Shown in pieces: positions 48,553-52,365 of a stretch of 64,000 nucleotides of DNA. The position numbers and the translations under genes were made by a program. How positions within the stretch are numbered: position 1 is the first letter of the stretch; each line of letters opens with the position of its first letter. Origin of the DNA: Phyllosticta citribraziliensis (lineage: Eukaryota); the NCBI RefSeq assembly GCF_038025025.1, contig NW_027117346.1:248001-312000 (forward strand), written 5' to 3'. A model generated the notes under the pieces. It ran no database searches and was not told the origin of the DNA. It worked only from the letters and a program-made list of their open reading frames with translations.

Positions 48553-49026
48553 CTACGCTGATAGCTTCAAGGTCAGCACCAGCAGGGATGTGTATGCTGC
48601 TACACTAAGCGCCGTGAGCACCGACACGACGTTGCCCGACGTCCTGAATTTCTTGCGCTGCAGCCCGTCCTCGCCCACCTCGGCAAAGAATTGCTTGTTG
48701 CCGTGCTGCCGCCTCAGCAGGCTGGTAAACAGCACCGCCGCCCCGTACACGGCGAACAGGGCGCCGATCGAGTAGAATTCGGCTGTGAAGATCTTGAGCA
48801 CCACCAGCGCAAATGAAAACTGCCCCAGTGCCGTGCGAATGTAGGCCCCTTCAAACGTCCGCTGCGCTGCCCTGATCTCGACGAGCTCGTCTTGGGTGAG
48901 AATGACGGACCGCGCCCGGTGGAGGCGCAACCGGTACCTGTCGGCGGGATTTCGTCCCTGTCATGAATCCGTCCTGCTTCAGCTAGCTTCCTGGGGGCTT
49001 GATCCGGATAAGCACACCTCGAACAT
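48553..49026 (-). CDS. Small DUF202/YidH-like membrane protein
   Basis: ELVEIRAAQRTFEGAYIRTALGQFSFALVVLKIF followed by further hydrophobic helices. Probable micro-exon ATG TTC GAG at 49026, then a GTGTGC..CAG intron; the start is uncertain. Confidence 0.8.
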
Positions 49027-49848
49027 GATGATGATGATGTCTAAGCGTCGATGGCTGCTTCAGTGCGTTGCACTCAGGTCGATTCGTGTGCGTAGCTCCG
49101 ACGGTCACCGACCGATGCAATCAACGGCTCCCGACCCGCAGTCTCCTGCAGCTCGCTCGTCTCAAATCTCCCTTGACGGTTCCGTTGTCGTGCTACAGAG
49201 CCCGGCTGCACACGCGATGATGAAGAGAGGTGGGAAGATGTATGATGGTGAACATGTGGCTGACCTGGTTGTCAAGCCAAGGAATATGCAGGCCGAGACG
49301 TAGGTGCAGACAGCTCGGCAGCTTAGCTTCCTGGTACTGTAGCTAGCTACCTCAGCTTGCAGCATCGTGAATCAGACGGTTCGACAACCTTTTCTTAGAG
49401 TGCTGAACCCAAACGCGTATTTTCATCGATTCTCGTTCCCCTCTGACATGTGCCTGTCGTGTGGCGCATCGGGTGGGGCTGAAGCTCTTGTGGAGCAGCC
49501 GGCGTCGGTCAACTTCCTTCCCTTGAATGTTCCCAGCGCGTCGCGAACACGTCAACCCCACGAACAAAGATCTTTCCCCTGCTCGAGCTGAACGCGGCCT
49601 GTGGAATCTGCCAATTCTTTCACCGACTTCAAAGCTTGACTGCGCCAGCGCACCGACAAGATTCAAAGGCCCCACGCGAACAAGGGCGCTGCCAGACATT
49701 CACCATTATTTTACAGCGCCGACCTCCGCTGCTGCTGCGTTTCCTCCACCACCGCAAATACACGACCGCTGCAGCTGCTCTCCACTTTTGCGCCCTCGAA
49801 TACTCCTTCCTCGACGTCCTTTGGAATAAATTACGTCCAGCACGCGTC

Positions 49849-51132
49849 ATGGCTGCCGAAGACGTCAAGTCACAGCCCGCAACGAGCAACGCGTCGTCTG
49901 GGACGAAACGGAAAAGGGCAGGCGAGCACAAGTTTTATGCCGTCAAGAATGGACACAAGCCTGGCGTCTACAGCAACTACAACGATTGCCAAGCGCAGGT
50001 CAAGGGTTTCAAGAACGCAACTTGTACACCACCAAGCAGCCCCTCCTGCCTGCATCCGCTTACTCTTCAAATCTAGTCAAGGCATTTCCCACCGCTGCCG
50101 AGGCCCAAGCATTTGTCAGATCCGGCAGTGACTCGACTACCACAGACAAGACCGACGACTCCAAAGTAACAAAGTTCTACGCGGTCCAAAACGGTCGAGT
50201 GCCTGGCGTGTATACCGACTGGGCTTCTTGCCAAAAGCAGACTACCGGCTTCTACGGTGCCAAATTCAAGTCATTTGCAACACGTGCCGAGGCAGACACA
50301 TTTGCAAAGGGCGGTAGGCCAACTGGAGGAGCTGTCGGAAACGTCTCAGTCGACGCAGACTCGCCGGCCGACAGCGGTGACGCAGCTTCGAACAAAGAAC
50401 CAGCGGCAAAGAAACAAAGAAAGAGCAATACGCCAGCCGAGGCTACTGGAGATTGGGAGCCTGGTGACGGGCCATTGCCCGAGGACGCCGAGGACAATTT
50501 CGACTCGACTATTATACTAGACCCATCGGGCAAGGTCCAGTACAAGACGGAGGAGCAAAAGAATGCCAAGAAAAAGGTTCCCACTGGCGATTCCAAGGGC
50601 GGTTCACTCGTCATCTATACGGACGGTAGCTCCCTGGGCAACGGCAAGAAGGGCGCCTTTGCTGGCGTTGGTGTCTTCTTCGGTCCCTTGGATGAGAGGT
50701 AACGCGTGCCGATCCTTGCCTTTGCCGCACAGTGCTAATAAAGTCTAAAGAAACGTCTCCGCTCCGCTTGCTGGGCCCCGTCAAACCAATCAACGAGCAG
50801 AGCTTACAGCCATCCAGCGAGCTCTCAATATCGCCCCATTGACGCGCGACGTGGAAATCTGCACTGACAGCAAATACTCCATCGACTGTGTTACCAACTG
50901 GATAATCAGCTGGAAGAAGAAGGACTGGAAGACGTCTGCTGGGAAGCCCGTGGAGAACAGAGACTTGATCGAGGCCATCGATGGCCGCATGGAAGAGAGG
51001 AAGAAGCTCAACCGCATCACCAAGTACACGTGGGTCAAGGGCCATGCCGACAACCCGGGGAACAAAGCCGCCGATGAGTTGGCAGTCCAGGGCGCTAGGA
51101 AGGCCATGGCTGATGCCAAAGTCGAGGCCTAG
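49849..51132 (+). CDS. RNH1: Ribonuclease H1 with two N-terminal hybrid-binding (caulimovirus-like) domains; 3 exons
   Basis: KFYAVKNGHKPGVY and KFYAVQNGRVPGVYTDW; catalytic IYTDGSSLGNG, TNQRAEL, ICTDSKY, WVKGHADNPGNKAADELA. Confidence 0.95.
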
Positions 51133-52365
51133 GTCTTGCAAGCGTGGGACGAGAATTTGTCGCAGCTGCAGGAGCGGCGTGAATTGCTTGCATGCTGCAG
51201 GTGAAGTTCTTGGCAGGTGTCAAAGCCAACGCCAGCCGAAGCATGAAGAGCCATAAAACACGGCTCACGGCGTGGGTCAACGTCAGGGATAGACGCTTTG
51301 CCGGCTTCCCCAAAAGTGTTTTGCGGTCGAGTATCAGAAACCACCCACGAACCACCCACGAAACGCACTCTCTTTCGCCGTCTACTCGAGATACCAACCA
51401 GAAACAGAAACGACACGCCAAGTCGAGCACGAAAGCAAAAGAAAACGGAGACAGACCAAAACCAATCACCGCTCACCCATCCCCTCATCCATCCATCCAA
51501 TCCCCTCTCACGGTCTCAGTCCCTGTATCGCCACACCAAAACACCAAGAGAGAACCAAGCCAAAAAGAAAAACATCACGAGGAACGAATGACAAGATAGA
51601 AAAGGACACGACAGGAAAAGAAAAGAAATGAACATTTTTGCTCTCTACCTATTGCCTAGCTGCCAAGCTCCGCCTCGTGATTCTCCCAAGAGTGCTGAAG
51701 TCGAGACAAGAAAAACAAGCGTAAGGTGGTAGGTGGGTGGAGCGCTGCCTGAGCTGCGTCGAGATGATGCGTTTCTGGCCACCTACCTCTGCGGGCCAAG
51801 ACGTCAGGGCAGGCAAGTACCGTACGTGCACGTCGTTTTGGCCTCCTCCTGTCTTGTCACGGTCTTGCTTCGTTGCCTGTGGCTATGGTCGTGCCGGTCG
51901 GTCATCTCGGATGCCAGCCGTCTTATGAGTCGCCCCTAACGCTTGCCTCCTGAATCGATATGGGCGTGTATGTACACCTCTCCTCGCTCCCCGCTTCCCG
52001 CACCCCGTCACTATCCGTCCCCGTCCCCGTGATCGTCTGAGGTCAGAACAGAGATGAGCGATGCCTGCCTCTCTGCAGCCCGCCGTGTCCTACCGCCACC
52101 GCGCGCCGCCACCGGGCAGCAGGTGGCGGCCTTGTACAACAACATAGCATAGTACAGTGCATCGCCCTCCCCGCGTCTTACTGCCGGCCGCTCCGACAAC
52201 TCTGTTCTAACGGTTCCACGCAGATCAGCACGAGAGAGGAATCACGCGGCGGGCTGGCCGGCGTGGACGCGCTGGTGCAGCTCGACAACAGCGCGCCACC
52301 GTCCCGTCTCGCCTCGCCTCTCGTCGTCCCGTTTGGCTAGCTAGGGCGTTGCGGGAAAGGGGGGC

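What the first reader, a model, noticed from the sequence alone, without database searches (positions are those of the whole stretch)
49705..49851. RNase H1 has an in-frame, non-AUG (AUU) N-terminal extension that looks like a mitochondrial presequence
Seen: the frame upstream of ATG 49849 is open and has no ATG. ATT at 49705 sits in an optimal CACC context and would add 48 aa: (M)ILQRRPPLLLRFLHHRKYTTAAAALHFCALEYSFLDVLWNKLRPARV. The first ~30 residues are Arg/Leu-rich with no acidic residue and include R-K-Y|T, resembling the R-3 cleavage motif. Established: mammalian RNase H1 makes mitochondrial and nuclear isoforms from alternative starts, and yeast GRS1/ALA1 make mitochondrial isoforms from near-cognate codons. 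Inference: dual targeting of this fungal RNase H1 by leaky near-cognate initiation, which standard annotation would miss.
Basis: partly seen in the sequence, partly recalled or inferred. Interest (0 to 1): 0.7.

Follow-up and report, generated by a model that had tools for sequence, protein, structure and literature searches.

The report
Possible non-AUG mitochondrial start of RNase H1
A fungal RNase H1 gene has a long, AUG-free leader whose reading frame stays open and looks like a mitochondrial import signal, much as in baker's yeast, where the same enzyme is known to reach mitochondria from a non-AUG start, but translation of this leader is not yet shown.

Summary
ATT 49705 (context CACC-ATT) is in frame with ATG 49849. 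The frame is open for 122 codons back to TGA 49480, with no in-frame ATG. The 48-codon extension is Arg/Leu-rich, and its first acidic residue is at position 32.

The gene is RNase H1 of Phyllosticta citribraziliensis (two hybrid-binding domains plus RNase H; both introns confirmed by RNA contigs).

For the interpretation:
- RNA assemblies from three organisms cover 49565-49803 or more, unspliced, so the ATT lies in transcribed sequence.
- One relative has no indel across the extension.
- In another relative, 4 of 5 substitutions in the extension are synonymous, against 3 of 9 further upstream (p about 0.06).
- In 15 of 15 lineage groups of Pezizomycotina RNase H1 loci, the frame upstream of the proximal ATG is open for at least 38 codons, mostly without an ATG.
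- Botryosphaeriaceae orthologs have a conserved presequence-like extension.

Against it:
- Openness plus presequence-like composition arises in 2.8% of shuffles.
- The extension is not detectably homologous to the Botryosphaeriaceae one.
- In 4 of 5 informative lineages the extension shows no codon-position constraint.
- No translation data exist.

S. cerevisiae Rnh1 is already known to make its mitochondrial form from an upstream ACG. Verdict: plausible (about 0.5), a new member of a known kind.

The parts
49522..49848 (+). Minimum extent of the unspliced 5' leader of the RNase H1 mRNA
   Evidence: low-depth RNA contigs cover 49522-49672 and 49653-49803 (X2) and 49565-49893 (X5). X1 and X3 contigs are collinear from 49017 to 50023. 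No joint lies in this stretch. The strand cannot be read from contigs.
49483..49848 (+). Open main-frame stretch upstream of ATG 49849 (122 codons, no in-frame ATG)
   Evidence: Open in 6.3% of dinucleotide shuffles and 1.7% of mononucleotide shuffles.
49705..49710 (+). Tandem near-cognate codons ATT ATT, each with A at -3; candidate start of the extension
   Evidence: No difference from organisms B and C is listed at 49700-49715; 11 differences of C are unlisted.
49705..49848 (+). Candidate 48-codon presequence-like extension
   Evidence: 5 R/K and 0 D/E in the first 25 residues, first acidic residue at 32, and an R-K-Y-T motif; 4 of 5 substitutions against organism B are synonymous (p = 0.06); codon log-odds 0.051 per codon, the best of the 3 frames, at the 12th percentile of true coding windows.
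49729..49737 (+). Three in-frame CTG codons (C at -3), alternative near-cognate starts
49527..49829 (+). Out-of-frame upstream ORF of 100 codons starting at the only ATG of the leader (poor context)
   Evidence: Its stop TGA 49827 is changed by T>C in organisms B and C. No Pfam family.
49849..50023 (+). Exon 1: annotated start (G at -3, G at +4), KRKR motif and the first part of hybrid-binding domain 1
   Evidence: Cauli_VI, E 5e-14; joint 50023 to 50077, GT..AG.
50024..50076 (+). Intron 1 (53 nt)
   Evidence: joint in X1 (GT..AG). X3 joins at 50020/50077 with 3 letters between.
50077..50698 (+). Exon 2: end of hybrid-binding domain 1, hybrid-binding domain 2, linker and start of the RNase H domain
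   Evidence: Cauli_VI, E 1.7e-20; RNase_H start; the spliced model is identical to P0001.
50699..50750 (+). Intron 2 (52 nt)
   Evidence: the joint is seen in all 4 runs (GT..AG, cut +2).
50751..51132 (+). Exon 3: RNase H catalytic domain and stop TAG
   Evidence: RNase_H, E 4e-28..

Best explanation
This is the RNase H1 gene of Phyllosticta citribraziliensis.

Proposed mechanism: the mRNA carries an unspliced leader of at least about 285-325 nt that is free of AUG (apart from one weak, cap-proximal, out-of-frame AUG) and keeps the main frame open. Most scanning ribosomes reach AUG 49849 (G at -3, G at +4) and make the nuclear form, whose N-terminus is acidic and carries a KRKR motif. A small fraction start at a near-cognate codon in the leader. 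The best candidate is the tandem AUU-AUU at 49705/49708 (A at -3). Starting there adds about 48 residues that act as a mitochondrial presequence, so one mRNA gives a nuclear and a low-abundance mitochondrial RNase H1, as in S. cerevisiae RNH1.

Shown: the gene model, transcription of the leader, the open frame, the codon context, and the presequence-like composition.

Inferred: initiation at AUU, import into mitochondria, and cleavage near R-K-Y|T.

Odds: about 0.5 that some non-AUG extended form is made from this frame, and about 0.3 that it starts at 49705/49708.
For: 1. The leader is in RNA and has no intron. All 4 runs are spliced at intron 2, and X1 and X3 also at intron 1, so they are RNA. 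X2's leader contigs have depth 3, like its CDS contigs (8-17) and unlike the neighbouring gene (108).

2. Frame 0 is open for 122 codons, against 6 and 69 in the other frames counted back from the ATG.

3. Against organism B:
- 4 of 5 substitutions in 49705-49848 are synonymous in frame 0, against 1 of 5 and 0 of 5 in the other frames;
- upstream of 49705, 3 of 9 are synonymous;
- in exon 1, 3 of the 3 substitutions evaluated are synonymous; a fourth exon-1 change, at 50021, shows only as letters between at the X3 joint, and I take it to be non-synonymous.

4. Organism C has 329 letters on 329 letters with 0 gaps across 49565-49893.

5. Relatives:
- Three Botryosphaeriaceae genera share a 58-residue in-frame extension upstream of their annotated ATG, with 33-41 of 58 residues identical and one 3-residue indel. 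It starts with a presequence-like MLLRLALRALPSRRT in the one ORF that has ATG there.
- In 15 of 15 lineage groups (14 from metagenome loci, plus this window), frame 0 is open for at least 38 codons upstream of the proximal ATG.
- Frame 0 is the longest of the three frames in 11 of 15 groups (p = 0.0018).
- Shuffles give a combined p of 2e-9.
- By my reading, 12 of the 15 groups have a member with no in-frame ATG more than 10 codons upstream.
- The frame-0 peptide is more basic and more amphipathic than the off-frame peptides in 14 of 15 groups.

6. Precedent: yeast Rnh1 gains a targeting signal only from an upstream near-cognate codon. It enters mitochondria only when extended by 21 codons from ACG (PMC6582344, passages and section 13; PMC11681198, passages). 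AUU near-cognate codons in good context are conserved and used in Pezizomycotina cpc-1 (PMC5487733, passages).
Against: 1. Chance is not excluded. Openness of 48 codons occurs in 35% of shuffles, and openness with the composition in 2.8%.

2. The synonymous excess rests on 5 substitutions: p = 0.06 alone, and Fisher p = 0.13 against the upstream part. Four of the five are shared by B and C, so they are not independent events.

3. An HMM of the Botryosphaeriaceae extension finds nothing in frame 0 of this leader.

4. In 4 of 5 informative lineage groups (L001/L030/L034, L014/L024/L039, L004/L005, L021/L025), variation in the extension is spread evenly over codon positions. For example it is 15, 12, 13 in the extension against 6, 7, 30 in the CDS, and dN/dS is about 0.5-1 or higher. 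The amino-acid sequence is therefore not visibly constrained there.

5. The one group with a clear coding signature (L041/L042/L072) probably has a 5' intron and, in L041, an exon-1 ATG. It does not prove non-AUG use.

6. AUU is a weak start codon (recalled), and +4 is A, not G.

7. No stabilising hairpin lies downstream: z = -1.5 locally, and the leader as a whole is less structured than shuffles.

8. The codon-usage score of the extension is intermediate.

9. Amphipathicity is modest: muH 0.26.

10. Insertions in organism B (9 letters, place unknown) and 11 differences in organism C were not listed.
Confidence: 0.5

Rival explanations
1. The stretch is a plain untranslated 5' leader. Its open frame and Arg/Leu/Pro-rich, acid-poor conceptual translation come from its C-rich, stop-poor composition. 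Only the form starting at AUG 49849 is made.
For: - All three frames are stop-poor here (0, 2 and 2 stops in 122 codons).
- Openness plus presequence-like composition arises in 2.8% of shuffles for one fixed position, before allowing for the many genes and start choices a reader scans.
- There is no detectable homology to the conserved Botryosphaeriaceae extension.
- There is no codon-position constraint in the extensions of 4 of 5 informative lineages.
- The codon score lies at the 12th percentile of coding windows.
Against: - Frame 0 is the open one in 11 of 15 lineage groups, and is open for at least 38 codons in 15 of 15. A never-translated leader should not show this.
- 4 of 5 substitutions are synonymous in frame 0 only.
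- The form starting at ATG 49849 has an acidic N-terminus with no presequence. The yeast and mammalian enzymes work in mitochondria.
Confidence: 0.36
2. An extended form is made, but from another near-cognate codon of the same frame: the CTG triplet at 49729-49737, or TTG 49636, ATC 49606, CTG 49588, or several of them at once.
For: - One search lists 14 in-frame near-cognate codons. TTG 49636 has A at -3.
- The CTG run gives an N-terminus (L-L-R-F-L...) that resembles the start of the Botryosphaeriaceae core.
- CUG is generally a stronger near-cognate codon than AUU (recalled).
Against: - The CTG codons have C at -3.
- Starts upstream of 49705 add D/E-containing sequence: the first acidic residue is at 9 from TTG 49636.
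- Substitutions upstream of 49705 look neutral: 3 synonymous against 6 non-synonymous.
Confidence: 0.15
3. The leader acts through the out-of-frame upstream ORF (ATG 49527, 100 codons, stop 20 nt before the main ATG). This ORF throttles RNase H1 translation, in the manner of the mammalian RNASEH1 upstream ORF.
For: The ATG and ORF exist. An X2 RNA contig begins at 49522, and the X1 and X3 contigs cover it.
Against: - The context is poor (T at -3, T at +4).
- It would lie about 5 nt from the 5' end of the shortest supported leader.
- Its stop codon is lost in organisms B and C (49827 T>C), so the ORF's architecture is not kept.
- It has no family match.
- It is not exclusive of the main explanation.
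Confidence: 0.07
4. The open frame is the 3' part of a coding exon that is spliced to an upstream exon carrying a normal ATG.
For: The related metagenome group L041/L042/L072 has a likely acceptor (ACTAAC..CAG) at the 5' edge of its coding extension, and L041 has an in-frame exon-1 ATG.
Against: In this window the X1 and X3 RNA contigs run collinear from 49017 to 50023 with no joint. The frame is closed by TGA 49480. The next gene is divergent and starts within about 530 nt. Contigs can drop rare isoforms.
Confidence: 0.03

Closest known systems
S. cerevisiae Rnh1 (RNase H1): mitochondrial echoform from an upstream non-AUG codon (PMC6582344; PMC11681198)
   Same: It is the same enzyme family in another ascomycete. 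The AUG-initiated form lacks a targeting signal. An in-frame, AUG-less leader encodes a presequence-like peptide, with a near-cognate start in the leader.
   Different: - Yeast uses ACG, 21 codons upstream; here the candidate is AUU-AUU, 48 codons upstream.
- The yeast case has localisation assays and ribosome density; here nothing beyond sequence and RNA contigs exists.
- I made no sequence comparison with the yeast leader (no yeast sequence was fetched).
Mammalian RNASEH1: two in-frame AUGs (mitochondrial and nuclear forms) tuned by an upstream ORF (mentioned in PMC11681198; details recalled)
   Same: One mRNA gives a presequence-bearing and a presequence-less RNase H1 through a choice of start codon. 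An upstream ORF is present in the leader.
   Different: There is no upstream in-frame AUG here. The upstream ORF is 100 codons long, in poor context, and its stop is not kept in close relatives.
Botryosphaeriaceae RNase H1 N-terminal extension (P0004, P0011, P0043)
   Same: It belongs to the same fungal order and lies at the same position, in frame and upstream of the annotated ATG. It has a basic, acid-free start.
   Different: - That extension is conserved at the protein level over 58 residues, and in one genus it starts with ATG.
- The Phyllosticta leader shows no detectable homology to it and has no ATG.
- No DNA of those orthologs could be read, so their codon at the first core position is unknown.
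Non-AUG N-terminal extensions in filamentous fungi: cpc-1 (PMC5487733) and peroxisomal 6-phosphogluconate dehydrogenase (PMC7214817, listing and abstract only)
   Same: These are in-frame leaders without stop codons, with conserved near-cognate codons (including AUU) in good context, in Pezizomycotina.
   Different: They involve other genes and other functions (bypass of an inhibitory upstream ORF; peroxisomal targeting). They also have experimental support.

Membership tests
Eukaryotic RNase H1 (type 1 RNase H with hybrid-binding domain) | N-terminal hybrid-binding domain (Pfam Cauli_VI) | tested here: met
   two copies, E 5e-14 (cut by intron 1) and E 1.7e-20.
Eukaryotic RNase H1 (type 1 RNase H with hybrid-binding domain) | C-terminal RNase H catalytic domain | tested here: met
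   PF00075, E 4e-28 on exon 3, plus its start on exon 2. The spliced model is identical to a database protein named RNase H domain-containing protein. I did not check the catalytic acidic residues column by column.
Non-AUG-initiated, N-terminally extended mitochondrial isoforms (as yeast Rnh1) | Main frame open, with no stop between the near-cognate codon and the AUG | tested here: met
   48 codons from ATT 49705; 122 codons open in all.
Non-AUG-initiated, N-terminally extended mitochondrial isoforms (as yeast Rnh1) | Near-cognate codon in a favourable context | tested here: met
   ATT 49705 and ATT 49708 both have A at -3; +4 is A and T, not G.
Non-AUG-initiated, N-terminally extended mitochondrial isoforms (as yeast Rnh1) | The candidate start lies within the mRNA | tested here: met
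   RNA contigs of 4 runs from 3 organisms cover it, unspliced. The strand and the exact 5' end are not determined.
Non-AUG-initiated, N-terminally extended mitochondrial isoforms (as yeast Rnh1) | The extension gains a mitochondrial targeting signal by predictors (MitoProt, TargetP, MitoFates) | not testable with these tools
   Only heuristics were possible; 5 R/K, 0 D/E, muH 0.26; this composition occurs in 8.8% of shuffles.
Non-AUG-initiated, N-terminally extended mitochondrial isoforms (as yeast Rnh1) | The frame and coding signature are kept in relatives | tested here: inconclusive
   - Organism C: no indel across 49565-49893.
- Organism B: 4 of 5 substitutions synonymous, p = 0.06.
- Unlisted insertions and differences remain.
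- Across other Pezizomycotina the frame is kept open, but a codon-position signature is seen in only 1 of 5 informative groups.
Non-AUG-initiated, N-terminally extended mitochondrial isoforms (as yeast Rnh1) | Ribosome occupancy or protein evidence upstream of the AUG, and mitochondrial localisation | not testable with these tools
   No Ribo-seq, proteomics or imaging is available. Only assembled contigs could be laid.
Two-AUG RNase H1 arrangement (mammalian type) | An upstream in-frame AUG that starts the presequence | tested here: not met
   no in-frame ATG between TGA 49480 and ATG 49849.

The most novel reading that the evidence does not exclude
An in-frame, presequence-like leader upstream of the annotated AUG may be an ancestral feature of RNase H1 across Ascomycota. 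On this reading:
- its start codon flips between AUG and near-cognate codons even among close relatives (an ATG-started ORF in the Lasiodiplodia-like P0011 against Leu at the same position in Neofusicoccum and Botryosphaeria; ATG in L041 but not in L042; AUU here; ACG in yeast);
- selection keeps the frame open and indel-free, and the composition basic;
- the amino-acid sequence itself drifts almost neutrally.
Probability: 0.4. Interest if true: 0.55.

Novelty: new member of a known kind. Interest (0 to 1): 0.4.

Why it matters
If real, standard annotation misses the mitochondrial form of a genome-maintenance enzyme in this fungus and probably in most Pezizomycotina. All 10 annotated orthologs whose sequences I read, bar one, start at the proximal ATG.

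It would extend the yeast Rnh1 case to filamentous fungi. It would also offer a natural series in which AUG and non-AUG starts replace each other, which is useful for studying how low-level dual targeting evolves.

If not real, it is a reminder that C-rich leaders translate into presequence-like peptides by composition alone.

Tried and rejected
- **Own genome:** none is held for this window, so no genome-wide base rate could be computed.
- **RNA runs:** no listed holder is on record as RNA. That the runs are RNA was inferred from the spliced joints.
- **Limits:** contigs give no strand, no transcription start site and no expression level. 61 differences and 6 indel rows were not shown, so organism C's own differences and the place of organism B's 9 inserted letters are unknown.
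- **Earlier findings:** The search of earlier findings on relatives gave nothing.
- **Homology to the Botryosphaeriaceae extension:** an HMM of that core against six frames of 49300-49875 gave no frame-0 hit; the best E-values, 0.4-0.5, were in other frames. The MAFFT alignment that paired QRR motifs is therefore not trusted.
- **Third homolog search:** a search with residues 1-62 of P0011 returned only P0011 itself.
- **Start-enhancing hairpin:** none is significant.
- **Pfam:** no family matched the extension or the upstream-ORF peptide.
- **Supplement of PMC6582344:** unreadable. The table with the yeast Rnh1 extension scores was not seen.
- **L041/L042/L072:** I first read this group as proof of a translated AUG-less extension. 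I rejected that after finding a likely 5' intron and an exon-1 ATG in L041. That intron is inferred from sequence only.
- **Literature:** four searches and the passages of PMC5487733 gave no report of a non-AUG RNase H1 extension in filamentous fungi. Subscription journals are not covered.
Full report
**What is there**

- ATT 49705 is preceded by CACC, followed by a second ATT, and lies 144 nt (48 codons) upstream of ATG 49849 in the same frame.
- That frame is open for 122 codons, back to TGA 49480, and holds no ATG.
- No ATG occurs in any frame from 49530 to 49848. The only ATG of the leader, at 49527, is out of frame and in poor context (T at -3, T at +4). It opens a 100-codon upstream ORF that ends at 49829.
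- The conceptual extension has 5 Arg/Lys and no Asp/Glu in its first 25 residues. Its first acidic residue is at 32, and an R-K-Y-T motif lies at residues 17-20.

**The gene**

- Pfam finds two RNase H1 hybrid-binding domains and an RNase H domain on the three exons.
- The model 49849..50023, 50077..50698, 50751..51132 gives 392 residues. These are identical to a database protein named for Phyllosticta citribraziliensis.
- Both introns are confirmed by spliced contigs: 50023>50077 GT..AG in X1, and 50696>50749 in all 4 runs laid.
- The main ATG has G at -3 and G at +4.
- The next gene upstream is divergent, on the minus strand. It has a weak DUF202 match (E 0.0011, below the Pfam cut-off).

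**Is the leader transcribed?**

No whole genome is held, and no run is on record as RNA. However, all four runs laid carry the spliced form, so they are RNA assemblies.
- In X2 (organism A), the neighbouring gene's contig (depth 108) ends at 49318.
- Two low-depth X2 contigs (depth 3) then cover 49522-49672 and 49653-49803. X2's RNase H1 coding contigs have depth 8-17.
- In X5 (organism C), one contig covers 49565-49893, running across the main ATG.
- In X1 (A) and X3 (B), one contig runs collinear from 49017 to beyond 51400 and merges the two divergent genes.
- No joint lies between 49017 and 50020.

So the ATT lies in transcribed, unspliced sequence, and the leader is at least about 285-325 nt long. 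Contigs cannot give the strand or the true 5' end.

**Chance**

In 5000 dinucleotide-preserving shuffles of 49483-49848:
- the last 48 codons stayed open in 35%;
- all 122 stayed open in 6.3%;
- the composition criterion (no D/E and at least 5 R/K in 30 residues) was met in 8.8%;
- openness and composition together occurred in 2.8%.

The other frames are stop-poor too.

**Close relatives**

Organism B (X3) differs at 31 listed places in 49017-50020, and all 31 are shown.

| Region | Synonymous in frame 0 | Non-synonymous |
|---|---|---|
| 49483-49704 | 3 | 6 |
| 49705-49848 (extension) | 4 | 1 (Ala to Thr) |
| Exon 1 | 3 | 1 |

The exon-1 non-synonymous change, at 50021, was not among the substitutions translated. 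It shows only as letters between at the X3 joint, and I take it to be non-synonymous.

- The same 5 extension changes are synonymous in only 1 and 0 cases in the other two frames.
- The excess has p = 0.06 under a transition-only neutral model, and Fisher p = 0.13 against the upstream part.
- Four of the five changes are shared with organism C, so the events are few.
- Organism C's contig lies on 49565-49893 with no gap, so there is no frameshift there. But 11 of its 19 differences were not listed.
- Organism B has 9 inserted letters somewhere in 49017-50020 that the table did not show. Listed indels cluster at 49025 and 49333-49343.
- No listed change touches 49700-49715.
- The stop of the upstream ORF is lost in both B and C (49827 T>C).

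**Intrinsic signals**

- The codon log-odds of the extension, trained on 20 long ORFs of the window, is 0.051 per codon. This is the best of the three frames. It sits at the 12th percentile of true coding windows and the 93rd percentile of off-frame windows.
- No significant hairpin follows the ATT (z = -1.5). The whole leader folds less well than shuffles.

**The same order: Botryosphaeriaceae**

- Of the 10 annotated orthologs whose sequences I read, 9 start at the proximal ATG. The 510-residue Neofusicoccum parvum model is the exception.
- That model and two ORFs called on assembly contigs (P0011, Lasiodiplodia-like; P0043, Botryosphaeria dothidea-like) carry an in-frame extension upstream of that ATG.
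- From one point on, the three are alike: 33-41 of 58 residues identical, with one 3-residue indel. Upstream of that point they are unrelated.
- The conserved part begins L-R-L-A-L-R-A-L-P-S-R-R, an acid-free, basic start.
- Only P0011 has Met at the first position of the conserved part. The other two have Leu there and reach an ATG only further upstream, in unconserved sequence.
- Their DNA could not be read, so the Leu codons are unknown.
- An HMM of this core finds nothing in frame 0 of the Phyllosticta leader. The two extensions are therefore not detectably homologous.

**Wider relatives**

A metagenome scan with the N-terminal alignment returned 80 loci. I took 44 of them (L001-L043 and L072) as fungal, by their match to the KRKR plus hybrid-binding region. 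I set the other 36 aside; they match residues 24-58 or less, and several are from gut assemblies.

The 44 collapse to 29 distinct sequences. In 3 of them (L015, L016, L020) there is no in-frame ATG before KRKR, and L012 runs off its contig, so I left those out. The remaining loci and this window fall into 15 groups, which I defined by visible similarity of the leader.

- Upstream of the proximal ATG, frame 0 is open for at least 38 codons in 15 of 15 groups.
- Frame 0 is the longest of the three frames in 11 of 15 groups (binomial p = 0.0018).
- Mononucleotide shuffles of the 600 nt upstream give a combined p of 2e-9 over the 15 representatives, and 1e-8 without this window.
- By my reading, 12 of the 15 groups have a member with no in-frame ATG more than 10 codons upstream.
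- The frame-0 peptide has more basic residues within its longest acid-free run in 14 of 15 groups, and a higher amphipathic moment in 14 of 15 with one tie. The run-length measure is partly confounded with the absence of stops.

**What tempers this**

Variation by codon position, among groups with two or more members, was as follows.

| Group | Extension | CDS beside it |
|---|---|---|
| L001/L030/L034 | spread evenly (15, 12, 13) | third-position excess (6, 7, 30) |
| L014/L024/L039 | spread evenly | third-position excess |
| L004/L005 | spread evenly | third-position excess |
| L021/L025 | spread evenly | too few differences to judge |
| L041/L042/L072 | clear coding pattern (7, 9, 33 over 75 codons; dN/dS 0.26-0.30) | third-position excess |
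| L022/L023 | too alike to inform | too alike to inform |

- In the first four groups dN/dS is about 0.5 to above 1. Those extensions are nevertheless free of indels where the DNA further upstream is full of them.
- The 5' edge of the L041/L042/L072 extension has a branch-point-like ACTAAC/ACTAAT followed by CAG. In L041 a 228-nt intron would join it to an exon-1 ATG that opens a presequence-like peptide. L042 has no ATG at that place. This intron is inferred from sequence only.

So relatives show that the region upstream of the annotated ATG is very probably read by ribosomes in many lineages. They also show that an ATG at its start is present in some species and absent in close kin. They do not prove non-AUG initiation.

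Each multi-member group does keep in-frame near-cognate codons with A at -3. For example, ATT at -39 is kept in all three of L001/L030/L034, at the 5' edge of their indel-free block. Such codons are common, though.

**What is known**

- Monteuuis et al. 2019 (PMC6582344; I read passages and section 13) list yeast Rnh1 among proteins that gain a targeting signal only as near-cognate-initiated extended forms. They note relatively abundant ribosome occupancy upstream of its AUG.
- A 2024 paper (PMC11681198; passages) shows that Rnh1 made from the AUG does not enter mitochondria. It does so when extended by 21 native codons starting at ACG.
- For Pezizomycotina, conserved AUU, CUG and ACG starts of an N-terminal extension are documented for cpc-1 (PMC5487733; passages).
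- Four searches found no report of this for RNase H1 of filamentous fungi.

**Verdict**

It gains a strong prior from the yeast ortholog and from the open frames in relatives. It remains unproven for this gene, and the choice of ATT 49705 as the start rests on context, composition and five substitutions.

I put about 0.5 on a non-AUG extended isoform from this frame, about 0.3 on 49705/49708 as its start, and about 0.36 on a plain untranslated leader. It is a new member of a known kind.

Noticed in passing
window 49017-49120 (minus strand) and 49025-49039: The divergent upstream gene has a weak DUF202 match (E 0.0011, below the cut-off). It has an intron ending at 49017: loose ends at that place appear in all 4 runs. 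It also has an (ATG)5 run, read as a His run on its own strand, where organism B lacks 9 letters.
   Followed up: partly
window 49318-49522: In X1 and X3, single RNA contigs bridge the whole intergenic region and merge the two divergent genes. In X2 there is a gap at 49319-49521. This suggests low-level overlapping or bidirectional transcription.
   Followed up: no
window 49827: The stop codon of the 100-codon upstream ORF is changed (T>C) in both related organisms. There the ORF would run on past the main ATG.
   Followed up: partly
P0002, P0003, P0004 (database orthologs): Gene models of relatives look faulty. The P. citriasiana model reads into intron 1. The P. capitalensis model lacks part of the RNase H domain. 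The N. parvum model (510 aa) starts at a far-upstream ATG in unconserved sequence.
   Followed up: no
L015, L016, L017, L020: These fungal RNase H1 loci have no in-frame ATG at all before the KRKR motif, within 37-86 open codons. Either an upstream exon or a non-AUG start serves even for the main form.
   Followed up: no
L041:1949-2233, L042, L072: There is a likely 5' intron (about 224-232 nt, with a branch-point-like ACTAAC/ACTAAT before CAG) ahead of a coding extension of about 84 codons. The exon-1 ATG is present in L041 only.
   Followed up: partly
window 51165: The X2 coding contig ends 33 nt after the stop codon. X1 and X3 run on beyond 51400, where organism B has many small deletions (51300-51383), as expected of a 3' UTR or intergenic stretch.
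   Followed up: no
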